From the human T2T-CHM13v2.0 reference genome, Homo sapiens: 64,000 nt of DNA. Positions 1,471 through 42,679 of this stretch are shown one piece after another. The notes under the pieces were generated by a model. It was given only the letters and a program-made list of their open reading frames with translations, was not told the origin of the DNA and ran no database searches. A program made the position numbers and the translations under genes. The DNA lies in the NCBI RefSeq assembly GCF_009914755.1, contig NC_060926.1. One strand, 5' to 3'. Positions within the stretch are counted from its first letter, which is position 1. Each line of letters starts with the position of its first letter.

Positions 1471-1620
1471 CTTTCATTTCTTCCTTTATAAGACATTTAC
1501 AGAAGAGCTTGGTATGCCAGGCACTGTGCTAGGTGCCAGGGTCACAAAGAGTAATAATGCAGGGTCCCTGACCTCCAGGAGCCCACCTGTGGTAAGGGAG
1601 AGCAGACCTGAGGTTGAGGG
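1471..1620 (-). mobile_element. L2 3' fragment
   Basis: ttcattt...catttac...tatgccaggcactgtgctaggtgc...gtccctgacctccaggagc, the reverse-strand L2 3' signature; more degenerate L2 sequence probably continues to about 2700. Confidence 0.7.
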
Positions 1621-4004
1621 TGCTCCAAGGAAATCAGGGTGTCAGTGAGGGGCACCAATGACAGAAAGTGGGAGAAGTGGGCGGGTGGGGGGAACCAGGA
1701 ACGGAGACCGCAGACAGTGGTTAAAGCAGACAGGTCTTCCGAGATCTCCAGAAGATCAGATGGTCTGGAGAGGGGGAAGCACCCTTCCTGGGCCAGGAGC
1801 CAGGGCACAGGGTGAGGTATCCTCACCTGGGGCACATGGGGAGCACCTGGCACTTCTGGAAGGGGTCAGAAAAGTGCACGGCCATGCTACAGAGGTTGCT
1901 TGTATCCTGGAGGCTGTGGAAGTCCTGGAAAGGACTTTAATCAAGAATTTTGATCCTTTTTATGTTACAGAAAAATCCCTCTTGGGAGTGTGTAGAGGAG
2001 GATGTGGTGGGAGCTGTGCTGGCCTTGGGGAGCAGGCAGGTGTGGGCGGTGGGCACAGTGAGGACAAGGCCCAGGCAGGGAAGTGCTGCGGGGCTGCTGT
2101 GGGGAGAAGATGAGAGCCTGCAGCGGGGGATAGGCAGGGCAGGATGGGGAGGGCAGGACTGGCCAGCCTCAATGACAGTGGGTTGTGGGTTGCAGGAGGG
2201 GTCTCGATGCTAGATGCCCAGTGGATGGTAATGAGGGGGTCAGTGCCAGCTGCCATGAGCCCCTGGGCAGCAGGGCAGGCAGGGAGGGCTGCTGGGGCCA
2301 GAGAAGAGGAGAGAGGCAAGGGCAGAAAGGGCCTCCGAGGCCACAGCAATGGCAGTGGACGCCTCAAGAATGGATGGAAGGAATTCTCGAGTAAAGGGGG
2401 ACAGTAGATGAGGCCGGGAGAGGGTGACAGAGAGCCCGGGGCCACACAGGGAAGACGATGATAGAGGAGGAGGTCCGGGCTGCCAAGGGGCAGCAGCCGT
2501 GGATAGAAGGGATGGGTCTGGAGCGATAGCTAGCCTCGAAGCCAGGGGGCCAACGAGCAGGAGGGGGGCGGCCAGCGGTGGCCTGTGCTGGCCAGAGAGT
2601 TTGGTAATGAGGAGGTCACTGGTGGCCTTGGCGGGGAGTGGAGGGAACAGAGCCAGGTGACAGGGAGAGCTCCTTCACAAAGACGGGCAGACAGTAAGCC
2701 TGGGGAGGACGTGGCGCATGGGGTAGTCAGTGCCCAGGAAATGTCTGGGGATAGCGTGGGCTAGGGACAGAAGGCAGGAGGATGGGCTGGGAGGAGAAGG
2801 GCTCATCTTCCTTGCACCACAGACACTGGGGGATAGGGTGGCTGCTGCTGCAGGAAGTGTGCAGGCCAGACAAGAAATGTTGGCAGGCGCATCTGCTGGG
2901 AATAAAATCTGCCCTTAGAGTTTGTGGAAAAGCAGTGTTCTTTAGTAAAAATCTCAGAATATACTGAATGGCATAAACAACACCTCTTCTCCCTCCACCT
3001 AGAATCAACCGTTGAACACTTCCTGTCCTTACAGATCCTTTACGAAAATGGGATCTTGTTCAACACATACTGCTTTACGGGCTGCCTTGTTCATGTCATA
3101 TGAAAGTTATTTCTCCGTTATCATTTTAACAGGAAGCACCAGCATTACGGTTCTAATTAATCCCCTGGTTTTGAATGTATAGATGGTTTCCATCTTTTAC
3201 TACCCCAAATAGTACTTATTTAGGGCACCTGGCTGAGAATTTCCTTAGAATGACTGCCAGGAGAGGCTTCCAGGTGGAGGGGCCTGGACATTCTGTGCGT
3301 GTCGTTTTTATGCGTACTGTCACACTGCCCCCCCAGGGGTTCCATCTGTTTACACTCTCCCCAGGAATAAATGAGGGCTCTGGCTCTCTACACTCTTCTC
3401 CTCGACAAGTATTAATAGTAAAAAACTCTCTGCCAATTTGCTAATGAAAAATGGTATCCTTTGCTTTTCTAATTTTCATTTAGCTATGAAAAGGCTTCAT
3501 TTAAATTACCCACAGATAGTTTGAGGTCACGGACAATTACATTAATTAATTCGTAATTGAACTTTCCAGAGTTCTGTCGGGTAGTTCACGTCACCTGCCA
3601 GTAGAGGGCTCTTCGCTACTATCAAATATCACTAGAGGGTTTTTGTTGTGTGTCAATTATGAAATAAAGACAAATTTCCACCGTGTGCCTTTTCAAATTC
3701 TAGGAAGTTCTAGCAAACAACTAAAGACGTCTCTATCCACATGCATTTTATGGGCTTGATCTTTTGTATTTTCCAAAGAAACACTGTCAAACATTCACCA
3801 TCAGAATTAGATTCTCAGGGGATAATGGCTCAATTAAAACCTGTTTGTGTTTCGGCATGCATGGGTTATGAAGATGCTCTGCCCAGATGACCCCTGGACG
3901 TTTTGGAGGTTCTCTCTGAAAGGATCCTATTTTGCTTGCCAAGGAGAACTGCAGGAAAAAAAACAGCTACTATTTTTTTCAGCTGATGTGTCTCGGCTGA
4001 AACT

Positions 4005-14029: not shown

Positions 14030-14449
<420 letters not shown>

Positions 14450-17184
14450 TCAACTAGGATAACTCAAGGTCAAAACTGCATCGTGTGACTCCACTTTCTG
14501 CAACAGTGATAAAGGCGTCCAAAGCATTTCAAACCAGAGACACGCCTCCATCCCAGCTGGCTCTGTGACACCTTTAATTTGTAGGTCAGGGCTCGTGGTA
14601 GAGCCATAGGGTCTCTGCGGGTCCTTAATACCCTTCTTCTCCCCCTCTCCACATCAGTATTTCCCCTGAAATCATAATTTTAAAGAGCATTCCTGCAATA
14701 GCTTACCTCTGGCTTTTTTTTTTTTTTTTTGAGTGCTTTCTCTGCTTGTCGGCAGCAGCATTAAATTCTTTGAAAGCTTGGGAAGAGGAATGTGGAGACA
14801 TAGACGATAAGGTTGACTAAGTGTTTATTTCCTTGCACCCCTCTTGCCTACCATTTAGTGATTCTTGTGAGATCAAGGGAGGATGGAGATGCAGGCAGCA
14901 GCAGCCTGAACTTCTTTCTCCTGCCCTGGTTTCTAGCTGTCAGTAGCGGCAGAGTTAACCTGACGCTTGATAATGAAGTGACTTGAATTACTGGAGTCAT
15001 TCAGAGGTTCATGCCGTGTTCTCCACCACACTGTCAATTTCCTTAGTGCCCAGAAGGGGCCTCAGGTGTGGGTATTCTCCATTGCAGAGAACACAAGCAG
15101 AGCAGGTATTGGGCACAAAGCAACTAAAAAGTGAACGGGATTAAATTCTGGAAAGTGCTGTGATCAAATCATTTACTATCACGTTAGTTTGCGTTCTGTC
15201 ACTTAATGGGCTCTTTTTGATACTCTGTAAATGTCAGTATGATGATTATGCTTTTCTTTTTTCTTGTATAATTGAAAAGATACAGAAAATTTAAGTGATG
15301 ATTAGACACCTAATTTTTATGGTTACCTACCATTCTCCACATAAACTTGGAAAATAGTTTTGAGCAAATTCTCTTTACCACGTAACTCAATGAGCATGCC
15401 TTTTTTGTGGTTAGTAGGGGCTGCGGCAATCTAATGGGATAAAGGAGAGACTCTTTTTCCACAACAGGAGAGAGATGCCATTCATTTGCCCTGCGTTGGA
15501 CACCTGGGTATGGAAGGCTGCTCTGTGGTAGCCCTGGCTGGGAGCTAGTGTGGGGGTCCGTGGGAGTGGGGACTGTGGCGGGGAGTGACACAAATGTGGA
15601 AAAGACTCAGGATTTGCTGTGGAGAGTTCAGGCCAGGGGAGGAGCTGAACCTGAGTTGCCATAATGAGAACGGGAGGCAAGCAGTGAGAAGGTCCAGGAG
15701 AGCCACAGGGAGTTCAGAGAAGAAACTGCTCCCCGCGGAGGACTCAGGCTGGACTTCCAGGAGGAGGTGGCATCTGGGCCAGCCTCTGAGGAATGGGCAG
15801 AATGGTAGCATGCGGTGAGGGGGGTGTGTGGGCAGGCTTCATGTGGGGCCGGGAAGCCAGGCTGGCACAGGGAGGGGTGAGGAGCCAGCGGTCAGGGGCC
15901 CTGAAAGGTGGTCGGGGACTGCAGGTGCCAGGCGGGTGCTGGCTGAAGCCAGGGGGCCGGGAGAGGTTTCTGGGAGTGGTAGAGGAAGGAGAGAACAGTG
16001 CTGAGGACAGAGCCTTGGGTTGGGAGGGGGCAGCAGGAGGCAGAGGAGCAAGGGCAGGTGAGTGGACCCGGGAGAGTGTGTGGCAGTGACACAGGCAGTG
16101 GCCTTCCAGAGAAAGGGGGTGGTCACCAAGGTCACCCAGAGAGGTGAAAAGGTTGGTCCAGGGAGGCCTCTTCAACGGGGGCCTGGCTGACCTCAGGGAG
16201 GACAAAGGTGGACAGAGGGCCCAGGAGCTGACAGGACACACATGTGCCAGTGTCCACAGCTCTTCCTGCCCCTCTCGTAGAGTTACCAAGAGACACAGTA
16301 TGGTTCCAGTTTTCGCACCTGAGCCCTGTTCAACTTTCCGAGAATTAAGAGATAACAAGGAGGCCAGTGTTCTCTGTCCTCAACCCAGTTTAGCCCCTTC
16401 CTAGCCCTGTGACTCCAAGGAAGTGCCCCTGTATCTTGGAACAGCTTACGAATCACTAAAAGCTGGACCACGTCCACCTGGAGGGGTCTGGCAGGAGATG
16501 AAACAGTGGACACGGTTTCTGCTCTGTGAGCGTGCCCCCACCCTTCACTTCTCCCTGATCTCTACGTGGCAGTAATACCTCCAGGAGGGTGGGTGGATGC
16601 TGACCAGATACTTCCTGGGCTTCCTCTTCTCTAACAAGGTGGTTTCGGAGTCTAAGCCCTAGCCCCAGGCTGCAGCCGGTGTCTCCTGGCCAAGTATGTA
16701 AGCGGCCAGGAGATGTTCTCAAGGTCCTCTGCTGAGTGGCCAGGTTTTTAGTCTGGGCAGCCGCCACCATCAAGGTGATCTAAACAACTGGAGCCCCCAG
16801 ACATTCCTTTTTATGACAGGATGTTATTTTAATGTATGAAATGTAAATCAGCCTCCCAAAAGCTTAACTGTGCACACAATTCATCTGCCTAACGTTTCTA
16901 TGCATTCCAAACACTTGGCACACATGCCCTGTCATGAGAACAAATGCCCCAGCCAGCTCTGCTCTCCGGAGGACCTCATAGCCCTTTTGGACAGTAGGTT
17001 CCTCAGTGAGAAAGGGAGGGTGTGGGTGGGGTGCTTCCTGAGGGCCCTTCTGTGGTGTGTTCAAAGCCAGCTTGGAAACCACAGATACCACCTTGTATCC
17101 TTTGCAGCTGTGAAATACACCAACCTCATTAGGGAGGCGTTCCCTTCCAAACTTGTTGGCTCTTGGTTCTTTCTTTCTCTTTTA

Positions 17185-17536
17185 TTCCCTCCCTCCCTCC
17201 CTCTCCCTCTCCCTCCCTCCTTCCTCCTCCTCTCTCTCTTTCTCTCTCTCTCTCTTTCTCTCTTTCTTTCGATGGAGTTTCACTCTTGTCGCCCAGGCTG
17301 GAGTGCAATGGCGTGATCCCGGGTTCCAGCAATTTTCCAGCCTCAGCCTCCTGAGTAGCTGGGATTACAGGCACCTGCCACCACACCCGGCTATTTTTTT
17401 TTTTTTTTTTGTATTTTTAGCAGAGATGGGGTTTCACCATGTTGGCCAGGCTGCTCTCGAACTCGACCTCAGGTGATCTGCCCACACTGGCTTCCCAAAG
17501 TGCTGGGATTACATGCGTGAGCCACTATGCCTGGCT
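17185..17536 (-). mobile_element. AluS with CT-rich expanded tail and about 24-bp internal deletion
   Basis: Alu body about 17266-17536; gcgtgatc|ccgggttc lacks tcggctcactgcaacctccgcctc; (CT)-rich tail 17185-17265. Confidence 0.92.
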
Positions 17537-18610
17537 CACTGGTGCTTTCTGTCTTACTGCCTTCCATGATGCTTCATGGAAGTGTGAGGTCTCCTCTATT
17601 TTATTTCCATTGACACTTATACATTTATTCTGTTGACCACAAATTATGTTGCCCCTCAAATATGATATATTTGTTATATATAATATAAATTATGTGCTAT
17701 TATATATTATATAAAACATATATATTATATATATATAAATGTATATTAACCCCAAATTCCATTTACTACTTCTGACATCAATTTAGAAGAGGAATTAACT
17801 ATTTCTTGCCAATAGGCAAGTTCTGAAGTCTTAAGTTCTGAAGTCAAAGTGGAACAATAAGGGTTTGAACTACTCCCATCTCATTTTAAAGCAAATTAAA
17901 AACCCAGAAGGTAATTTCTATTTGAGAGTTGTTGTCAGAACTGAAACTCCTGGCTGGAGTTGCCATCCCTGCCCCTGGTGATTCAGGTCATACACATATC
18001 AAAGCCATAAAGAAAAAAAAAAAGAAAAAAGCGAACGTGAGCCGCAGATATCTGTGCTGTGGAGAGCCCATCTTTCCTGCATCGCCTGCACACCACAGAG
18101 CTCTAGTGTGTCTGTCTGAAAAAAGTCACAATTGAACCTCATTTAGCAGTGAGAGTAGACGTCGGTGAAAACTGGCAGGGCCTTAAAGGTGATCCTTTAG
18201 ATCCATGAAACACACTTGCACTGACTCCTGAAAGGCTGCCTCTGTTTAGGACCTAGTAATAGGAGCCTGTGGGTAAAAGGCAAGTGGTAGCCCTAGCCCG
18301 TTCTCTAATTTGATTAATCGTAATTGCAGGTACTTGCTTTGCCTATTATCTCCCCAGCTCATTGCCTGTATGTCCTTCAGCCCAGCACTGCTAAGCAGGC
18401 ACGCAGAGAGGGTGCAGAAGTGCTCTCCCTGGTAGTACTTTGTGTGCTGGTGGGTGCACTATCAAAATGAAACTGTGCCCACTCAGAATTCTCAGTAGGA
18501 AAAGTTAAGGAGCACTGTACTTTTGATGACAAACAGGAACACACTGTCCAAACCAGCAAGCGGTGCAAGCTGCTTTGGAAAAGGCACATCCGCGCACGCC
18601 GAGTCTTTAC

Positions 18611-18718
18611 CTAATGGCCAGATTCCGTACAATGTGATGAGCTGTCTGACATCCAGGAGGGAGGGCATGGGTTCTATGGACACCTGGCGAAGAGTAGTCC
18701 CCAGGTAGCTGTACTCAC
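18611..18718 (-). CDS. IQCA1: IQCA1 coding exon (108 nt): (G)[35 protein letters not shown](G)
   Basis: ttttctctccAG acceptor (18719-20), GTAAAG donor (18609-10), phase 1 to 1, in frame with both neighbours. Confidence 0.95.
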
Positions 18719-20374
18719 CTGGAGAGAAAAGAAACAGAGGAACAATAAATGGAAAACAGCGCTGGTCTGAGCTGCATAATTTTGGCATCTGCAAAACGAT
18801 CGGAGAATACAAATTGAACATTTCAGAGCAAAGAGAATCCTATTAGGAGAGTCATTATGAAGAACACATCTTTTCTCAGATAAAGGTTTGAAGAAAAGCT
18901 ATCCAGGCAAGAAAGCCCTGCTCTACTAGCTAGAGTAAACTGGGAATGATGTTGACTATTATATTAGCCTCCTAATACTTTCTAAAACAACATTTGAATA
19001 TAGAGTTATGTGAAATGGGACAAAGTGCTAAAAAGAAGGACACACAAAAAAGGCTGAAATATAGGGGGCTCTGCTTTATTTATATTCCAATAGATTATGT
19101 ATAACATTTGTGCAAACTTTATAAATAAGTTATTTAAGATCGATGTAGAATTTGTATTGGAGCAGTGTAAATCTGAGTGTAAAATGCAGTCATTTGAAAG
19201 GAAGGGTATGAGTCTAATTTAGGATAAATAGAAACATCTCCTTTTGAGGGTAATATTCATTTACATTTTTATCATTTTTAAGAGAGTACCAAAGGAATAA
19301 TGCAGAAATAAATCTTTACAGGTTTAATTAGAAGATATCAAAGGGCTTAATTGTAACTAGTCATAAATCTGAAGTGTTATTTTCTAACTAATTTAGATAA
19401 GGTCACCAAGAAAATTAGTTTGGCTGTCTCCATTTGTCATGAGGACGGACCTTTATAGGTTCATATGATTCTCTCTTGATCTGTATCTGAATCTGGAGTA
19501 AAAATATTCAATGAACGAATCACCATGTCTGGATTTTTTTCCCTGATGCTTTCTTCCTATAGCGAGTCCTGGTCCTGCAGAGCTTCGGATGCTACATGTG
19601 TACGGCAAGTACAATATGCACATTTATGTGTGTAGGAAACACTGAAAGTATCCCAAGCTTTTAAGTATTTTCAAATGCTAAGAAAATCAGAGTTAAAATT
19701 CAGACAGTGACCGCTGTTTTGTTGTGGGGCAGGGGGCAGCCTTTCAGAGCCTCCACATGAACAAAACGTCCTTGGCAAGGACAATGGGTATTGGTTGGGA
19801 GAATGAGTGATAATGAAAGCATCTATTATGGCTTCAGATACCACACTTTTTAATGAGCAGGTAATAAATAGAAGAGTGGTTAATTTAGCCTCCACTAGAA
19901 TAGAAAGAGATCCTGTAACAACTGTTAAATCCAGCGCTCATTGCCAGTAAACATGACATTCAAGGTGACAGGAAAGTGACCCCAATTTTCCTGCTTATCT
20001 AAACCCATATTAATCTCCAGATGCACCATATTTTCTAGAACATAACAGATCTTGTTTAAACAAATTATATTCAGTTGAATTAGTGGGTGTTGGTTCTAAC
20101 AGAGGCAAGGACACAAGTAGCCCCGGCTGCCTGCCAAGGTCTGAGACTCGCACTGAAAGCACATTCCTGTGTTTGCAGTGGCCCCACACAGAAGCCATGC
20201 CCCTTCCCATCCGTGCATTCGGAGCTCGGAAAGTCCAGCATTCCCGGCACAGACATCAGATCTTCCACAGGGGAGGGAAGAAGAAAGTGGCAGACGAAAA
20301 GGCATTTAGGATAGAGGGCGTGAAAATGCCAGGAAACCCAGATCAAGAGGGCAGAAAACCAAACAGCGGCTGCA

Positions 20375-20670
20375 CGACAGGTGGAATCGAATCCCCTTGC
20401 AATTCTAAGTGGAAGTCCTAATCCCCAGCATCTCAGAACGCGACCTTATTTGGAAATAGGGTTGTCGCAGATAGATTTCATTAAGATGAGGTCATTAGAG
20501 TGGACCCTAAATCCAACAGGACTGGTGTCCTTATAAAAAAGGAGAAATTTGGACACAGAGACAGACATGCACAGAGGCAGAACACCACGTGAAGATAAAA
20601 GCAGAGAGGGAGGTGATGGTTTTACACCAAGCATCACCGAAGATCGCCAGCCACACGCCAGGGGCAGCTG
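20375..20670 (+). mobile_element. MLT1 (MLT1B/C-like) MaLR LTR fragment
   Basis: gaagtcctaatcccc...gaccttatttggaaatagggt...attaagatgaggtcattagagtggaccctaaatccaa...gactggtgtccttataaaaa. Confidence 0.8.
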
Positions 20671-22475
20671 AATGCCGTGCAGGTGCAGCCTGGGGTGCTC
20701 CATCCAGCCACTTGCTTAATGTTTACAGCGATTTAGTGAGGCATTTGCTGTAATTACCTCATCCCATAGTAGTGGAAACTGAGGCACAGAAAGAGTAAGT
20801 AAAAGCCTGGCATCTTGGAGGGAGGCAGCCTCAGAAAGACGAGAGGAAGGAGAGATTCCTTGAGCCTGGGAGGAGAGACCGGTCAGTGGTCCCTGAGCAG
20901 CGGGCATCCAGCCCCAGGCCCTGGAGGTCTGGGGGGCCTTCATGGGCACCGGCCCCCAGAATTTCTCTGCAGCACCCTGGTGCTTCCTGGGAACTGGGGG
21001 CCTTGAGGATACCTAGGGCAGGGGTGGGGACTGGCAAGAAGGACTGAGTTTAAATCACCTTGGTAGTATAGGGGTTGTGAAGCCAAATTAAAGTGATATA
21101 AAGAAAATAAGGAACTTGCTATTTCTTGCACACCTGAGATTGTGGCAGGTGCTTGCTGCTGGGCACAGGGCCAGTTCTGGAGCAGGGTGGCCATGCAGGG
21201 GTGCAGCAAGCAGTGGGGTGGGTGGTGGGGGTGGGCTGGTGGGAGCCGAGGGCTGGGCCTGGAGGAAGGTGTTGTCCCCAGCTCTGCAGTGCAGGCTTCG
21301 CATCCTCTGGCTCTGTTCCTCCCCTTGTCTCCTGTAGCTCTTATCTGCTGTGATTCTAATGACTGTTGAGATTCTAATGACTGTTGGGAGTTCAATGGTG
21401 TTGAGGACAGAGTGGGATTACAAATCTCAAGACTAAAAAAAGCAACTTCGTGTCCAGCGGCTGAGCACGCTGGATCTGTGTAGAGCATTCCTGGCCTGGT
21501 GGAGACATCCATCCGGGCAACCACATTCTGCGTCCGGGGATCCCTGCTCCTGCCCTGCCTGGATGAAGGGCTGGGGAGGAACAGCCCACATCCACCCTCT
21601 CTCATCTTCTAGAAGCAGGAGAAATAAACGGCTCTGGGCACTCAGGCTTTGCAGTGCTGGCCTCTGGAGCAACGGAATAGGCAACAGAGGAACCCTCTGG
21701 GCCATGCCTCTGTTGTCAAGGTGTTAAAAAGGAACCAAGATAATAAATTCAAAACCAGGGAACCCAAGGGTGAGTGAGGGTGCCTGGGTCCTCATCTCGT
21801 TAATGCTCTTCTTAGACAAGATGACGAGGCATGACTTATCTGGGTGCTGAGAGCAGTGTGCTTTCCAGAGGCAGGGGGGCATTCCCAAGCCCCCTGAGTT
21901 TATGTGATCAGGAAGAAGCTCCCAGCTGTGCAAGAGCCCAGTACCCCTAAGGTAGGAAGTCTGCAATGCCGTGTTGTCAGCGCACACCGCTCTTATGCAT
22001 TGCACTCTCTCTCCTGAAGCCCTCACCTTGTCCTGGTTTTATGGGTATATAGAGAATGCTCACTACCAATCCTCGTGCCAAGGTGTCTCACGTCATTTTT
22101 GATTGTCAGTAGGTCATTCTTAGCAGATTCTTCAGGAAGGGCTCAGGGGGAAAACTGCTGAGTTCTTTCATGTTTATCAGTTTGTGTCCCATGTACTTGA
22201 AAATAAACTTGGCTGGGTACAAAATCCTAGGATCCTGCTTCCTTTCCCTGAGCATCTTATGTATGTCACTCCATTTACTTCTGGTGTAAAGCATTGCTGT
22301 GGAAAAGTCTGAGGGTAATCTAATTTTCTTTCCTTTCCAAGTCATATGATCTCTTTTACACAGATACCCAAAGGCACTTTTATTAGAATGTCTTCTTGAT
22401 CAATCTGAGTCAATATTCTCAGATAGACAGTGTGGTCTTTCGTTATGTGGTTTTAATGTTTTTTAAACGTCTAAA

Positions 22476-22991
<516 letters not shown>

Positions 22992-23041
22992 CTAAAAGAA
23001 ATGTTCATGAATTAAAATTATATATATTTATAAAATTAAAA

Positions 23042-23328
23042 TTTGAGACAAGGTCCTGCTCTTTCACCCAGGCTGGAATGCAGTGGTGTGATCTTGACTC
23101 ACTGCAACCTTGAATTCCTAGGCTCAAGCGCTCCTCCTGCCTCAGCCTGCTAAGTAGCTGGGACTACAGGTGTGTGTCACCATGCCTAGCTACTTTTTAT
23201 TTTTTATTTTGTAGAAAAAGGGTCTTGCTATGTTGCTAGGCTGATCTCAAATACTTGGTCTCAAGAGATCCTCCTGCCTCCGCCTCCCAGAGTGCTGAGA
23301 TTACACGTGTGAGCCACTGTGGCCGGCC
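23042..23328 (-). mobile_element. AluJ
   Basis: Complete dimer with J-type features (ctaggctcaagcgctcctcctgcc; ggtcttgctatgttgc). Confidence 0.9.
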
Positions 23329-23675
23329 AAAATTCTTTGCATTTTTTCTGTTCCTTTGCTTTGATTTTTTTCTTTAGGGACTCGTATTATCTGTATGTTG
23401 GATTTTCTTTGTCTGTCGTCAATATTTGATATGCTCTTTGAATTCTTTTAATATCCTTAATTTCTAATTTTACTTTAAAAATTTGCCTTTTTGCCTTTTA
23501 TTTCTAAAGCATTACTATTTTTATTTGCTCTTGTATTCATTATAATTTATTTTTTTCTAAAACATTTTCCCCTTTATTTATATTTATTGAGATTTGTCAC
23601 CTCATTTCTGGGTTTTACTCTTTCTATTTTATGCTGTTCTCACACGTCTTCTATAATTCTTTAATGTATATTAAC

Positions 23676-23967
23676 TTTTTTTTTTTTTTTTGCGACGGAG
23701 TCCCGCTCTGACCCCCAGGCTGCAGTGCATTGGCACAATCTTGGCTCACGCAACCTCCCTGGCTTCAAGCGATTCTCCTGCCTCAACCTCCTGAGTAGCT
23801 GGGATTACAGGTGTGTGCCATCACACCTGGCTAACTTTTGTAATTTTTGCAGAGATGGTGTTCCTCCATGTTGGCCAGGCTGGTCTGGAACTCCTGACCT
23901 CCAATGATCCGCCCACCTCAGTCTCCCAAAGTGCTGGAACTACAGGCATGAACCACCGCGCTTGACC
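23676..23967 (-). mobile_element. AluS
   Basis: Complete dimer with poly(T); TSD tgtatattaac on both sides. Confidence 0.93.
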
Positions 23968-24843
23968 TCTTACTGTATATTAACCTGTTTTGAAATAGGT
24001 TTCAGTATAGACCTGCTTTGTGGAGATGTCTTTTTGGGAAGTTAATGTTTTCTTATTCTTTTTTTCTTATGATAATTTTGCATGGGCATTGACCTTGAAC
24101 TTTTCCATTGCTCAAATTTATATGAGTGAATAGTCCAATACTTTTAGAAGGAAGTGTGGCGCAGGATAGCTTTTCCAGTTTCACAGAGCTCCCTCCTCTG
24201 TCGTCTTTATAGACGTTAAAAATGCGGTGGTTTGCTTTCTGAGATGTTCTGGCTCTGGTCCCCTCCCCTAATTTCTTCTGGGCCTTCTCTATGCTTCATC
24301 TTTACTTTTCCCATCCTGTTCAATTTTGATTTAATTCCCAAGAGTTTCTTTGTAGTATGGGCCCTGTGGAGGAAGGCACTGGGGTGGGTCACCGCCCCAG
24401 CTCCTTCACACTTTCTTATTCCGGTCCTTTACACTCATCTGCTATTGAGGTGGGCCAAACCCCTCCTAGTTTCAGCTTTGATTCTTACCTGGCCCACTGC
24501 ACATTACCTGGCCCATTGCTCTCTGGTTATTTTGGGGTCTCCTGTTCTCAGGTCCTTTGGTGTCCCTAAAGCTTGTACTTTGGGGCTCAATGGGGAAAAT
24601 TTGTCATTTAGTTTTGGTGCAAGTGTTGCCTGGGGGGTTTTGGTCTTGTTTTCTAGTTGCTCTATTTTACTATGTGGGGATTTGGGAAGATACACTGCCA
24701 TCTTTCAAGCTAAGGACCTTAACTGGGAAAAAATGAAAATATGGACAGGGGAAAAAATGAAAATATGGACAAGGTCAAAGTGTGCCAGATTTTGGTGGAT
24801 ATTTGACTACTTTGGTTAGATTGAGTCATTTTCACTTAGAGTC

Positions 24844-25610
<767 letters not shown>

Positions 25611-26139
25611 AAGTCACTCTTAAACGGCTGACTCCACCCACTTTGATCTTAGGCATCTTAAAGATGCTTCCTGGAAATTGACAGATCATTGAAAAAGTTC
25701 AGAAGGGATGAGAAATTAATAATTAGTTGAGAAGTCAGTCCGCACATAGGTAATGAGAATCTACCACATGCCAGGCACTGTACTCGGCACTAGGATCTTT
25801 TGTTCAGAAATCCAAACCATAAATAAGAGACAGTTCTGTTAAAAACAGCCATTTTAAAATATTAACAGAATTAACAAAACAGAATCAAGGTACAGGAGAA
25901 AATTCTCCAGCACTTGAAGAAGAAACACAGAAAGTAAAATAAATAGAAACCCAAAACATATCTTAATAAATATTCCAGCAAAATTCTTATGCTATTAGGA
26001 AATGTGAGGGCTCCTTTAAGCCCTCAAGAAGAAAACAAGGCTGTCTTGCAAAGGGATTAAAATAACCACCCTTTGATCAAAGGAGAATGCCAGCCTTCTT
26101 GCCCTCACAGACCAAAATTGGGTCAATGTAAATACCAGG

Positions 26140-26920
26140 ATGGATAATGATAGGGACAGACGATAATACATTGAATAAAAAAAGAATCCATGTGTCTACA
26201 CTGATAACGCAATTTTAAAAGATTCCACACTTCCTCACAGAAGAATGATATCTATTCAATGTAGAAGGAATGATAGAAAAATCTCCACTTTTACAACTGC
26301 TACAGCAATAACTGATGCAGATACAAAATCATCAGTGGGTGCTAAAACGCTGCCTGAGAGGCTGCTGGGAACAGAATCTCCACAGCCTCAAAATATCACC
26401 CCTTGGATTGATTGTTCATTAATTATAAAGGGAAAGATGATGCTTTACAGTGGAGAAATCCCGGGAACAGCACCTAAGCCACAGGATTAAACTTAACCTC
26501 ACCACTGATGGGACAAAGTGGCATTAAGTGCCCCCAGTGGGAAACACTGACAGGGAGACACCATCATTTTCCTGTCAAAATGTTTAACCTGAATCGAATA
26601 ATGAGAAAACCATGACACACATTCAATTGAGAGACAGTCTGTGCACAGCTCAGACTCTTCAAAAATGTCAGTGTTGTGAAAGATGGCGGAAGGCTGGGAA
26701 ACTGTTCCTGACGGAAGGAATTACGGGAGACAGAAGAGACACAACAATCACTTGCACCATCCTTGGCTGGATTTTGGATGGAGAAAGACAAGTATTTATA
26801 CAGGACATTATCAGGACAATTGGGAAAGCTGAAGGTTCACTGTATATTAGGTAACAGTATTGCATTTGATTTTCTGAGTGATTTTCCTTCTGTGGTTATG
26901 TAGGAGAATGTTGTCATTCA
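26140..26920 (+). mobile_element. Ancient L1MC/L1ME 3' region
   Basis: aaaatgtttaacctgaatcgaataatgagaaaac...ctcttcaaaaatgtcagtg...ggattttggatgga...aggacattatcaggacaattgg...tgtggttatgtaggagaatg; boundaries approximate. Confidence 0.7.
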
Positions 26921-27519
26921 TTGGGGGTAATTTCTTCATAAAAGTAAAACTAATAACTGCATTACGGTAGTACAGTTATGAGGAATTTTAAGCTTTAAGT
27001 GTGTTTTCAGGTCATCATGGTGTTTTTTAAAAATTTAGAGAAAACCATTAGGTGAGGCTGTGATAACAAATGTCCCCACCTCATTCCTCCCCAATATTTG
27101 TGTCTCTATTGGAAGGTATCTTTTGGAAAGAATTCCTCCAGTAAGGATTCTGTTGTGGAGGCCTTAGGTGCTGCCCCAGGTGCATTTTTTACAAGTGAAA
27201 TCATTAACAATTCCCCATTTCCTTAAATCAGATTATGCCAGAAAGAATGCACCAAGGAACCTTGCTAGTAGGTTAAAAACCTGCTTCTATTACGTTAGGG
27301 GAGAGAGCTGCAACCATTTTATTAAGAGAATCTGTTAGTCCACAGCATCCTCTTAGGTTATTTGAATCAATTCAATCCAACAAACATTTACCAGGAGCCA
27401 CCATCGGCCAGGTTTTGGCTTGAACAAAAATGTAAATAAAACATATTTCCGGCTGCTGGGATTTCAAAACACAAGAGGTGACACGTGACACATACATGTA
27501 TTATTCTCTGTGTACTCAC

Positions 27520-27602
27520 CAATGTAATCAGAGAGGTTGACTTTCAGAGCCTGGATCAGTAATCCTTCTTCCACCAGTTCCTTATACAGAGACTCGATGG
27601 TC
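27520..27602 (-). CDS. IQCA1: IQCA1 coding exon (83 nt): (R)[27 protein letters not shown](G)
   Basis: ttctccccAG acceptor (27603-04), GTGAGT donor (27518-19), phase 2 to 1; not shown in the ORF track. Confidence 0.95.
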
Positions 27603-42304: not shown

Positions 42305-42400
42305 CTTGTCCTTTTTCTTTCCTGCTTTCACTGGGCGCTCCCTTTCTCTGTCCACAGCTAGCTTTAAGTTTTTAAGTTCCTGTCTCATCAACTCATCAAC
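42305..42400 (-). CDS. IQCA1: IQCA1 coding exon (96 nt): [32 protein letters not shown]
   Basis: ttctcctAG acceptor (42401-02), GTGAGT donor (42303-04), phase 0 to 0. Confidence 0.95.
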
Positions 42401-42572
42401 CTAGGAGAATACAAAACATACTACTTTTAAGTCACTTTGCATGTCTTGTGTTTTGTTTGTGAAGTTTAAAAATCCCTTAAATTATGGGGTAGGTCATTAG
42501 TAGGAAATTGTAAAGAAGCACAATGGTTGAAGTAAATGATTTGCTGTTACTACACCATAAACGTAGCTGTAC

Positions 42573-42679
42573 CTGTATCCTGATCTCTGACTGTAATTCT
42601 TTTCGTTTCTCCTCTTTGATCAGTTCTGGATCATAGTCCTGAGAGAAATTCCAAGACTCATCTTTTTTCATCCAGATTT
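42573..42679 (-). CDS. IQCA1: IQCA1 coding exon (107 nt): (E)[35 protein letters not shown]
   Basis: Long polypyrimidine tract then gtgtAG (42680-81), GTACAG donor (42571-72), phase 1 to 0. Confidence 0.94.

What the first reader, a model, noticed from the sequence alone, without database searches (positions are those of the whole stretch)
18611..27525. Splicing regenerates an identical 5' splice site: candidate in-frame recursive-splicing exon in IQCA1
Seen: the donor after exon 27520-27602 is ATTG|GTGAGTACAcag, and the next exon (18718 downward) begins ccAG|GTGAGTACAgct. The first 9 nt of the intron and of the downstream exon are identical, so after ligation the mRNA again reads ATTG|GTGAGTACA, a consensus GTGAGT donor. 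The exon's own donor is TAG|GTAAAG. The exon is 108 nt and phase 1-1, so re-splicing would remove 36 aa cleanly just upstream of the Walker-A exon. Established: AG|GT 'RS-exons' exist, and the exon junction complex suppresses their re-splicing. Inference: EJC-gated isoform control; the 10-bp direct repeat (GGTGAGTACA) could also record intron origin. It also makes short-anchor junction reads ambiguous.
Basis: partly seen in the sequence, partly recalled or inferred. Interest (0 to 1): 0.7.

Follow-up and report, generated by a model that had tools for sequence, protein, structure and literature searches.

The report
Re-splice-prone exon in DRC11
A conserved coding exon of the human cilia gene DRC11 (IQCA1) begins with the same nine bases as the intron before it, so splicing rebuilds a usable splice signal; this arrangement is real but belongs to a common, already described class, and nothing here shows it is used for regulation.

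Summary
On the minus strand, exon 27602..27520 ends ACATTG|gtgagtaca. The next exon (18718..18611) starts ccag|GTGAGTACA, is 108 nt long, is phase 1-1, and ends TAG|gtaaag. Skipping it keeps the frame.

It fits the sequence definition of a 'putative RS-exon' (Blazquez 2018: 3.6% of human exons, mostly constitutive, repressed by the exon junction complex). It also has the profile they describe for EJC-sensitive exons: the best acceptor and one of the weakest donors in the window.

The exact 9-nt identity looks coincidental:
- The exon side is fixed by Gly-Glu-Tyr codons conserved from ctenophores to man.
- The intron side differs in 17 of 17 ORFs from other mammals.
- The human paralogue IQCA1L shares the intron position but not the repeat.

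So the 'record of intron origin' idea is not supported.

The 36 residues are the second most conserved 36-residue window of the protein and lie inside the AAA+ domain span, just before Walker A. A skipped product is therefore probably defective. Only 3 of 225 full-length models (two orangutans, one mole-rat) lack exactly this exon. Gibbons and marmoset have Asp for Glu, which would weaken the rebuilt donor.

Verdict: an ordinary new member of a known class. Whether re-splicing actually occurs is untested.

The parts
27520..27602 (-). Upstream coding exon (83 nt, phase 2 to 1), ending ACATTG. An EJC would be deposited on it after the first splicing step.
   Evidence: hub annotation NM_024726.5.
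27511..27520 (-). Copy 1 of GGTGAGTACA: the last exon base plus the first 9 intron bases (donor TTG|GTGAGTAC).
   Evidence: U1 pairing -10.6 kcal/mol, third strongest of the 7 donors in the window.
18719..27519 (-). Intron of 8,801 nt between the two exons. It contains several copies of a dispersed repeat family around 23000-25500 (Alu-like by recall) and has no terminal inverted repeats.
18719..18745 (-). Acceptor with the best pyrimidine tract of the 7 in the window (19 of 20 pyrimidines at -23..-4, C at -3).
18710..18719 (-). Copy 2 of GGTGAGTACA: the last intron base plus the first 9 exon bases, which are codons (G)GT GAG TAC A = Gly-Glu-Tyr-Ser.
18611..18718 (-). Candidate RS-exon, 108 nt, phase 1-1. 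It encodes about residues 521-556 of human DRC11: a highly conserved motif plus the helix before strand beta-1 of the AAA+ domain.
18602..18613 (-). The exon's own donor, TAG|GTAAAGACT. It is weak (U1 pairing -6.7 kcal/mol, 6 of 9 consensus positions).
14395..18610 (-). Downstream intron of 4,216 nt. A re-splice from 18718 would remove it together with the exon.
14195..14394 (-). Walker-A exon (GPSGVGKK), the acceptor exon of the predicted 27520-to-14394 junction.

Best explanation
Exon 18718..18611 is a normal, constitutive, strongly conserved coding exon of DRC11/IQCA1. By sequence it also belongs to the known class of annotated 'putative RS-exons'.

Shown:
- After ligation to exon 27602..27520 the junction again reads TTG|GTGAGT, the very donor 9-mer just used.
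- The exon combines a strong acceptor, a weak donor of its own and a strong rebuilt donor.

Inferred:
- As for most of the ~6,800 human exons of this class, the EJC deposited by the first splicing step keeps the rebuilt donor silent, and the exon is included.
- If repression fails, re-splicing from 18718 to the acceptor at 14395 would give an in-frame mRNA lacking 36 codons.
- That product lacks the second most conserved 36-residue window of the protein and the helix leading into the P-loop strand, so it is most likely a defective by-product, not a regulated isoform.

The exact 9-10 nt identity is a coincidence of two separate constraints. The exon side is largely dictated by conserved Gly-Glu-Tyr(-Ser) codons (G|GN GAR TAY); GTGAGT needs only the synonymous choices GGT and GAG. 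The intron side is a donor variant specific to the lineage leading to man.
For: - Sequence, phase and frame.
- Class definition and size (3.6% of human exons, n = 6,837; 93.8% constitutive; 21.7% of genes carry at least one): Blazquez 2018, section read.
[quoted passage not shown] Here the acceptor is the best of 7 (19/20 pyrimidines), the own donor pairs with U1 at -6.7 kcal/mol, and the rebuilt donor pairs at -10.6 (range of the 7 annotated donors -6.2 to -11.8).
- Protein constraint on the exon start: of 221 full-length models that contain the exon, Gly is present in 221, and the first four residues are GEYS in 178, GDYS in 25 and other in 18. G-E-Y is present from ctenophore, coral, bivalves and lamprey to mammals.
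- Intron side not conserved: 17 of 17 non-human genomic ORFs over the upstream exon read ...DY[IM]G then K (15) or N (2) and V (15) or A (2), never E-Y. Exact 27-residue matches tie some of them to gerbil, guinea pig and ruminant proteins.
- The human paralogue IQCA1L has the same 108-nt phase 1-1 exon and intron position but reads ACATAG|gtgagaccc ... ccacag|GTGACTTCC, only 6 of 9 identical.
- The exon matters to the protein: 10 of 36 columns are invariant against 42 of 798 elsewhere (Fisher p = 3e-5), and only 1 of 799 windows of 36 residues is more conserved. It lies within the span aligned to spastin, FIGL1, katanin and Vps4 AAA domains (model 486-515 to about 800, Z 20-22), directly before strand 571-575 and the P-loop 576-583.
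- The exon is present in 221 of 225 full-length models.
Against: - No RNA data of any kind were available, so both the inclusion level in human ciliated tissue and EJC dependence are inferred.
- MaxEntScan could not be run, so the class threshold (5.52) was met only by proxy.
- Three predicted isoforms (Pongo abelii X5, Pongo pygmaeus X4, Fukomys damarensis X2) lack exactly this exon. Skipping may therefore occur at detectable levels in vivo, which leaves room for a used isoform.
- Both human paralogues keep GGT at the fourfold-degenerate Gly site. That could hint at constraint on the T, but it could equally reflect the AG|GT acceptor context.
- The first half of the exon-encoded segment is modelled with low confidence (pLDDT under 50 at 524-542), so its structural role is not established.
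Confidence: 0.75

Rival explanations
1. One reading: the rebuilt donor is used on purpose. EJC occupancy gates re-splicing, so that ciliated cells make a second, in-frame DRC11 isoform lacking 36 residues before Walker A.
For: - Skipping is in frame, so the mRNA would escape nonsense-mediated decay.
- The exon has the EJC-sensitive architecture.
- 3 of 225 full-length models from two orangutans and a mole-rat lack exactly this exon.
Against: - The removed piece is the second most conserved 36-residue window of the protein and sits inside the AAA+ domain span.
- 221 of 225 models keep it.
- Gibbons (all 10 gibbon models listed) and marmoset have Asp instead of Glu. A GAY codon puts a pyrimidine at +5 of the rebuilt donor, so the signal is not maintained even within primates.
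- The gene appears in none of the recursive-splicing supplements that could be searched.
Confidence: 0.1
2. The rebuilt donor is never used. Whatever skipping exists (the orangutan and mole-rat models) is ordinary one-step exon skipping, caused by the exon's weak own donor failing exon definition.
For: - The own donor TAG|GTAAAG is among the weakest in the window (-6.7 kcal/mol, 6 of 9 consensus positions).
- The mature mRNA cannot distinguish the two routes.
- Blazquez 2018 note that many RS-exons are insensitive to EJC loss (section read).
Against: - The acceptor is the strongest in the window, and the exon is included in 221 of 225 models, so exon definition works.
- In reporters, a strong rebuilt donor that can outcompete the downstream donor favours re-splicing (section read).
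Confidence: 0.12
3. The 10-nt direct repeat is a footprint of how the intron arose or moved. Either it is a target-site or staggered-break duplication at insertion, or it marks a 10-nt intron slide, because corals carry their intron exactly 10 nt downstream (AG|C in the Ser codon).
For: - The intron is not universal. About 50 genomic ORFs nearest to bivalves, flukes and brachiopod- or annelid-like proteins have the two exons fused while both flanking introns are in place. 12 ORFs nearest to coral and other early-branching animals have an intron 10 nt downstream.
- The human intron starts with a copy of 9 of the 10 bases that lie between the two positions.
- Direct repeats of 4-12 bp at new introns are documented in Daphnia (passages) and claimed more widely (abstract).
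Against: - 17 of 17 ORFs from other mammals have a different intron start.
- The intron is at this site in ray-finned fishes, in the second fish paralogue and in human IQCA1L, so it predates that duplication. IQCA1L shows no extended repeat.
- There is no similarity beyond the 10-mer and there are no terminal inverted repeats.
- Six of the nine intron bases are donor consensus, and the exon bases are fixed by codons.
Confidence: 0.04

Closest known systems
Annotated, mostly constitutive RS-exons repressed by the exon junction complex (Blazquez et al. 2018, Mol Cell; examples KPNA1, aCADM2, AP1G2, MRPS5)
   Same: [quoted passage not shown] It has a strong acceptor and a weak own donor. Inclusion is the default.
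   Different: No EJC knock-down, PRPF8 iCLIP or lariat evidence exists for this exon in anything I could search. The rebuilt donor equals the upstream donor over 9 intron/exon bases instead of the 6 that the score uses. The gene is cilia-specific (recalled) and therefore probably silent in the cell lines used.
Intronic recursive splice sites / ratchet points with cryptic RS-exons in very long introns (Sibley 2015, Duff 2015; known to me only through Blazquez 2018 and recall)
   Same: The same chemistry: an AG|GT junction that regenerates a 5' splice site after the first ligation.
   Different: Those sites lie deep inside very long introns and serve stepwise intron removal. Their RS-exons are cryptic and usually discarded. 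Here the exon is coding and conserved, and the introns are 8.8 and 4.2 kb long.
New introns flanked by short direct repeats from staggered double-strand-break repair (Daphnia neointrons, Genome Biol Evol 2014; Rogers and Bendich 2025)
   Same: A 10-nt direct repeat sits at the two intron borders, with one copy left in the exon.
   Different: Those are recent gains. This intron is shared by both vertebrate paralogues and by ray-finned fishes, and the intron copy of the repeat is absent in other mammals.
Near-intron pairs / intron sliding (recalled literature, e.g. Lehmann et al. 2010; not read here)
   Same: Two intron positions 10 nt apart in one conserved exon in different animal lineages.
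   Different: Here the positions are inferred from read-through ORFs on unnamed contigs, not from annotated gene structures, and no intermediate state is known.

Membership tests
Putative RS-exon (Blazquez et al. 2018) | An annotated internal exon whose junction with the preceding exon recreates a GT-type 5' splice site | tested here: met
   the junction reads TTG|GTGAGTACA, identical over -3..+6 to the annotated donor of exon 27602..27520.
Putative RS-exon (Blazquez et al. 2018) | MaxEntScan score of the rebuilt site at or above 5.52 (the score reached by 90% of canonical human donors) | not testable with these tools
   No MaxEnt scorer is available, and no paper in the library holds this 9-mer together with MaxEntScan. 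Proxies: it is the same 9-mer as a donor in use; it matches 7 of 9 consensus positions; U1 pairing is -10.6 kcal/mol, third of the 7 donors in the window.
EJC-sensitive subclass of RS-exons | Stronger 3' splice site and weaker own 5' splice site than insensitive RS-exons | tested here: met
   Best pyrimidine tract of 7 acceptors (19/20). Own donor -6.7 kcal/mol, within the weak group of the window. The comparison is within this window only.
EJC-sensitive subclass of RS-exons | The upstream intron is removed before the downstream one | not testable with these tools
   This needs paired-end nascent or total RNA-seq.
Experimentally supported RS-exon | More skipping after EIF4A3/RBM8A/MAGOH depletion, PRPF8 crosslinks upstream of the exon-exon junction, or lariats starting at the exon's first base | not testable with these tools
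   IQCA1/DRC11 is absent from the 5 held supplement files of Blazquez 2018 (Table S6 part 1 of 3 read) and from the 4 files of the 2023 lariat study. The full list of 6,837 exons and the knock-down tables are not among the held files.
Intronic recursive splice site of long introns (ratchet point) | Lies inside a very long intron and is followed by a cryptic, normally discarded RS-exon | tested here: not met
   The exon is coding, conserved and annotated. The flanking introns are 8,801 and 4,216 nt long.
Intron gained with a target-site or staggered-break duplication | A direct repeat at both intron borders that is shared by orthologues or is longer in older lineages | tested here: not met
   The repeat is present in human, but 0 of 17 other genomic ORFs read G-E-Y into the intron. 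The human paralogue shows 6 of 9 identical.
AAA+ ATPase domain (meiotic clade-like) of DRC11 | The exon-encoded residues lie within the structurally conserved ATPase domain | tested here: met
   Pfam AAA begins at 572 in P0022, 15 residues after the exon ends. Structural alignments to spastin, FIGL1, katanin and Vps4 start at model residues 486-515 and end near 800 (Z 20-22, rmsd 3.2-4.4, 238-282 aligned). The ranges give first and last aligned residues only.

The most novel reading that the evidence does not exclude
The rebuilt donor is really used. In ciliated tissue or testis, incomplete EJC repression lets the spliceosome re-splice from 18718 to 14394. This gives an in-frame DRC11 that lacks the conserved pre-Walker-A motif and helix. 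It would be an ATPase-disabled structural subunit that still assembles into the nexin-dynein regulatory complex and tunes it. The predicted exon-less isoforms of orangutans and a mole-rat would be its trace, and the Glu-to-Asp change in gibbons and marmoset would be a natural loss of the switch.
Probability: 0.1. Interest if true: 0.55.

Novelty: new member of a known kind. Interest (0 to 1): 0.25.

Why it matters
It matters modestly.
- It is a clean, testable example of an annotated RS-exon in a cilia-motility gene. The rebuilt donor is literally the donor just used, so any difference in use between the two must come from context (EJC, exon definition) and not from the site itself. That makes it a convenient minigene.
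- It shows how a conserved protein motif (Gly-Glu-Tyr behind a phase-1 intron) can impose a near-perfect donor on an exon start.
- Practically, reads that reach 9 bases or fewer beyond 27520 cannot separate spliced from unspliced RNA.
- The side observation is a small case for students of intron evolution: this intron is absent in bivalve- and fluke-like genomes and sits 10 nt away in corals.

Tried and rejected
- **MaxEntScan score.** No scorer is available, and no paper holds the 9-mer TTGGTGAGT together with MaxEntScan. I used U1 duplex energies and consensus counts instead.
- **DNA of this exon from other vertebrates** (to test the wobble T and the GAG codon). Scans of genome contigs and viral contigs with an alignment of the exon found no relative (55 and 18 pattern hits, none confirmed). 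No vertebrate genome other than the window's own is held. The synonymous-site test stays open.
- **The search for homologous proteins with the 35-residue exon.** I used the representative search, which accepts it, and the 66-residue Walker-A exon instead.
- **Extended similarity around the repeat.** None was found.
- **Terminal inverted repeats or other transposon marks at the intron ends.** None was found. The only inverted pair touching the intron start (27496-27511 with 26156-26171; 16 nt, 88%) has its partner 1.3 kb inside the intron and looks like chance.
- **Literature.**
  - IQCA1 with 'recursive splicing': 0 papers.
  - IQCA1 with 'exon skipping': 1 paper. It lists a TCGA exon-skip event in IQCA1 (id 58093) without saying which exon.
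  - Zhang 2018, supplement file 10: 3 IQCA1 rows, of which 2 were shown. Both are motif-based intronic candidates in 21-kb IQCA1 introns, not this exon. Files 13-15 of that paper were not searched.
- **The 2026 preprint on recursive-splicing features.** I saw only its outline, and it is not relevant to this exon.
- **Paralogue's upstream exon.** It was not found with the human 27-residue query. It was found by reading ORFs in locus L002.


Full report
**1. The observation**

Read on the minus strand, exon 27602..27520 ends ...GATTACATTG and the intron begins gtgagtacacag. The next exon is preceded by ...ttgttcctctgtttcttttctctccag, begins GTGAGTACAGCT at 18718, and ends ...TGGCCATTAG|gtaaagac at 18611.

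The first nine bases of the intron and of the exon are identical. With the preceding G this is the 10-mer GGTGAGTACA, which occurs nowhere else in the window (2 matches, 0.03 expected).

The exon is 108 nt long and phase 1-1. The seven exons of the window give an open frame of 245 residues, and without this exon the frame stays open at 209 residues. The following exon carries the Walker A motif GPSGVGKK.

Similarity does not extend beyond the 10-mer: 11 of 60 bases match on one side and 15 of 51 on the other, and local alignments of the 150-nt flanks are no better than shuffles.

**2. What class this belongs to**

Blazquez et al. [quoted passage not shown] I read the abstract, the Results sections on prevalence, mechanism, physiological use and evolution, and the method section on exon categories.
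- At their threshold, 3.6% of human exons (6,837) qualify.
- 21.7% of genes have at least one.
- 93.8% of them are constitutive.
- The EJC deposited by the first splicing step blocks spliceosome assembly on the rebuilt site.

With 19 exons in this gene (hub annotation), one such exon is close to expectation.

Positions -3 to -1 of a rebuilt site always come from the upstream exon. The rebuilt 9-mer therefore equals the upstream donor whenever the exon's first six bases equal the intron's first six. By my rough estimate (recalled hexamer frequencies) that holds for a few hundred human exons, and three further identical bases for a handful.

**3. Strength and architecture**

No MaxEnt scorer was available (one search found no published value), so I used proxies.
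- Pairing with the 5' end of U1 is -10.6 kcal/mol for the rebuilt site, the same as the upstream donor by identity. It is -6.7 for the exon's own donor TAG|GTAAAG. The seven annotated donors of the window range from -6.2 to -11.8.
- The acceptor has 19 of 20 pyrimidines at -23..-4, the best of the seven.
- Three of the seven exons start with GT, but only this one rebuilds a strong site.

Strong acceptor plus weak own donor is what Blazquez et al. describe for RS-exons that are sensitive to EJC loss. They also show that a strong rebuilt site favours re-splicing. By sequence, then, this is a good candidate. Nothing more can be said without RNA data.

**4. What the exon encodes**

- It matches residues 522-556 of human DRC11 in the axoneme structure 8J07, the bovine chain in 9FQR, and more weakly (E = 0.09) the Chlamydomonas chain in 8GLV.
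- DRC11 is the AAA+ subunit of the proximal lobe of the nexin-dynein regulatory complex linker (passages of Ghanaeian et al. 2023).
- In an alignment of 28 full-length orthologues from ctenophore to macaque, 10 of the 36 removed columns are invariant against 42 of 798 elsewhere. Only one of 799 windows of 36 residues is more conserved.
- An AlphaFold model of the macaque protein, which is identical to human over this exon, has mean pLDDT 67.8. It gives a low-confidence stretch (524-542), then a helix (545-558) leading into strand 571-575 and the P-loop 576-583.
- Structural alignments to spastin, fidgetin-like 1, katanin and Vps4 AAA domains span model residues from 486-515 to about 800 (Z 20-22). 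Pfam's AAA model starts at 572.

Removing the exon would thus cut out a core-proximal, highly conserved part of the ATPase domain. A functional isoform is possible but not the likely outcome.

**5. Does skipping occur?**

I located both flanking exons in 225 of the 236 fetched proteins of 400 residues or more.
- 221 contain the exon.
- One (sturgeon, flagged as contaminated by its source) has an insertion.
- Three join ...LSDYIG directly to SAAVHEK...: Pongo abelii isoform X5, Pongo pygmaeus X4 and Fukomys damarensis X2.

These are predicted models. They suggest that the junction is seen in some RNA data, but they cannot show by which route it forms.

On the other side, all ten gibbon models and marmoset have Asp in place of Glu. 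A GAY codon puts a pyrimidine at +5 of the rebuilt donor, so the signal is not maintained even within primates.

The gene does not appear in any recursive-splicing data I could search. The full exon list and the knock-down tables of Blazquez et al. are not among the held files, and three files of Zhang 2018 were not searched.

**6. Is the repeat a record of intron origin?**

*The exon copy is explained by the protein.* Gly is invariant, and Glu/Asp-Tyr/Phe is nearly so, across animals. The exon must therefore start G-N-G-A-R-T-A-Y, and GTGAGT needs only the synonymous choices GGT and GAG.

*The intron copy is not old.* A search with the human genomic ORF across the upstream exon returned 17 short ORFs from unspliced DNA of other species. 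All 17 read K or N, then V or A, and mostly H after ...DY[IM]G, which means GT-AAN-G[TC]N-CAY. Human reads E-Y-T. Exact matches of the 27 exon residues tie some of them to gerbil, guinea pig and ruminant proteins, that is, both main branches of placental mammals. So the human state is derived.

*The intron itself is old.* ORFs that read from a pyrimidine tract into G-[ED]-Y-S-Y-L-G are nearest (34-35 of 35 residues) to mammals, a bird, turtle or gecko, teleosts and gar, and also to the second fish paralogue. The human paralogue IQCA1L on chromosome 7 has the same 108-nt phase 1-1 exon behind a 152-nt intron. It reads ACATAG|gtgagaccc ... ccacag|GTGACTTCC, sharing 6 of 9 bases.

The repeat is therefore best seen as coincidence.

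**7. A side result on intron positions**

This rests on my hand classification of the 110 hits, from the output.
- **31 hits** show the intron at the human site. Two of these have uncertain affinity: P0214, and P0217, whose nearest named proteins are a brachiopod and a coral at 29 of 35.
- **50 hits** are short ORFs in which the upstream exon runs straight into this exon. The acceptor before ...R-TIESLY and the donor after ...PL-G are both still visible as read-through. They are nearest to bivalves (35 of 35), a fluke (35 of 35), and brachiopod- and annelid-like proteins.
- **12 hits** start their homology only at S-Y-L-G, after residues that fit ...YAG|Y. This means an intron in the Ser codon exactly 10 nt downstream. 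They are nearest to Acropora (32 of 32) and other early-branching animals.
- **17 hits** are spliced or ambiguous models.

Retrocopies are excluded for the fused form, because both flanking introns are present.

The human intron happens to begin with 9 of the 10 bases that lie between the two positions, and a repeat of that kind would in principle allow both splice sites to shift together. I keep this as a low-probability rival, because the intron copy is missing in other mammals and in the paralogue.

**8. Verdict**

- The interpretation as an RS-exon candidate is right at the level of sequence, and the exon even has the sensitive architecture. But it is one more member of a large, published class, and its use is unshown.
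- The product would probably be defective, and the 'intron origin' idea is contradicted.
- Interest is low to moderate. The useful follow-ups are junction counts in ciliated tissue, a two-version minigene with a synonymous GT mutation, and a look at the vertebrate alignment.

Noticed in passing
window 18719-27519 (the intron), compared with proteins P0121-P0229: The intron position is not universal. About 50 unspliced ORFs nearest to bivalves, flukes and brachiopod- or annelid-like proteins have the two human exons fused, with both flanking introns kept. 12 ORFs nearest to coral and other early-branching animals have an intron exactly 10 nt downstream, in the Ser codon (AG|Y). Vertebrates (both paralogues) have it at the human site.
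   Followed up: partly
P0217 (112 aa) and P0214 (182 aa): Two ORFs with the intron apparently at the human site are not clearly vertebrate: P0217 is nearest to brachiopod and coral at 29 of 35, and P0214 is nearest to lamprey at 28 of 35. If P0217 is an invertebrate, the site is either older than vertebrates or was hit twice.
   Followed up: no
P0038, P0039, P0068: Predicted isoforms of two orangutans and the Damaraland mole-rat lack exactly the 36 residues of exon 18718..18611. Other models of Pongo abelii and of the mole-rat include the exon.
   Followed up: partly
Exon start, codon 18716-18714 (GAG); P0015, P0017-20, P0023-27, P0070: Gibbons (three genera) and marmoset have Asp instead of Glu at the second codon of the exon. 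This would put a pyrimidine at +5 of the rebuilt donor.
   Followed up: partly
L002 (G000:C7:152365857-152368952), locus positions 1494-1754, minus strand: The human paralogue IQCA1L has the same 108-nt phase 1-1 exon behind a 152-nt intron. It also starts with GT (GTGACT), but its own donor is strong (CTTG|gtgaga).
   Followed up: yes
P0057, P0058 (Marmota isoforms X8/X9): These models join an upstream exon ending ...DVYK directly to GEYSYLG, so they skip several exons upstream of this one while keeping the split Gly codon.
   Followed up: no
P0075 (Cricetulus, 1446 aa) and P0317 (Acipenser, 885 aa): These gene models are named, or carry domains of, ankyrin repeat and SOCS box protein 18 and also contain the DRC11 AAA region. 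ASB18 is the neighbouring gene in human as well, so they are probably read-through or merged annotations.
   Followed up: no
window 42305-42679: Exons 42573-42679 and 42305-42400 are separated by an intron of only 172 nt. Exon 42305-42400 also begins with GT (GTTGAT) but rebuilds only a weak site (-5.6 kcal/mol). The antisense lncRNA IQCA1-AS1 overlaps here.
   Followed up: no
P0002, P0003, P0040, P0044, P0046, P0049, P0081 and many of P0121-P0246: The public protein collections hold many short 'proteins' that are ORFs called on unspliced vertebrate or invertebrate DNA. They are useless as proteins, but they show intron positions and the first codons of introns.
   Followed up: yes
IQCA1 introns outside this finding (hg19 chr2:237327914-237349682 and 237374353-237395471): Zhang et al. 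2018, supplement file 10, lists motif-based candidate intronic recursive sites in two 21-kb IQCA1 introns. A third row was not read.
   Followed up: no
window 27496-27511 and 26156-26171: A 16-nt inverted repeat (88%) has one arm right behind the donor of exon 27602..27520 and the other arm 1.3 kb inside the intron. It is probably chance.
   Followed up: no
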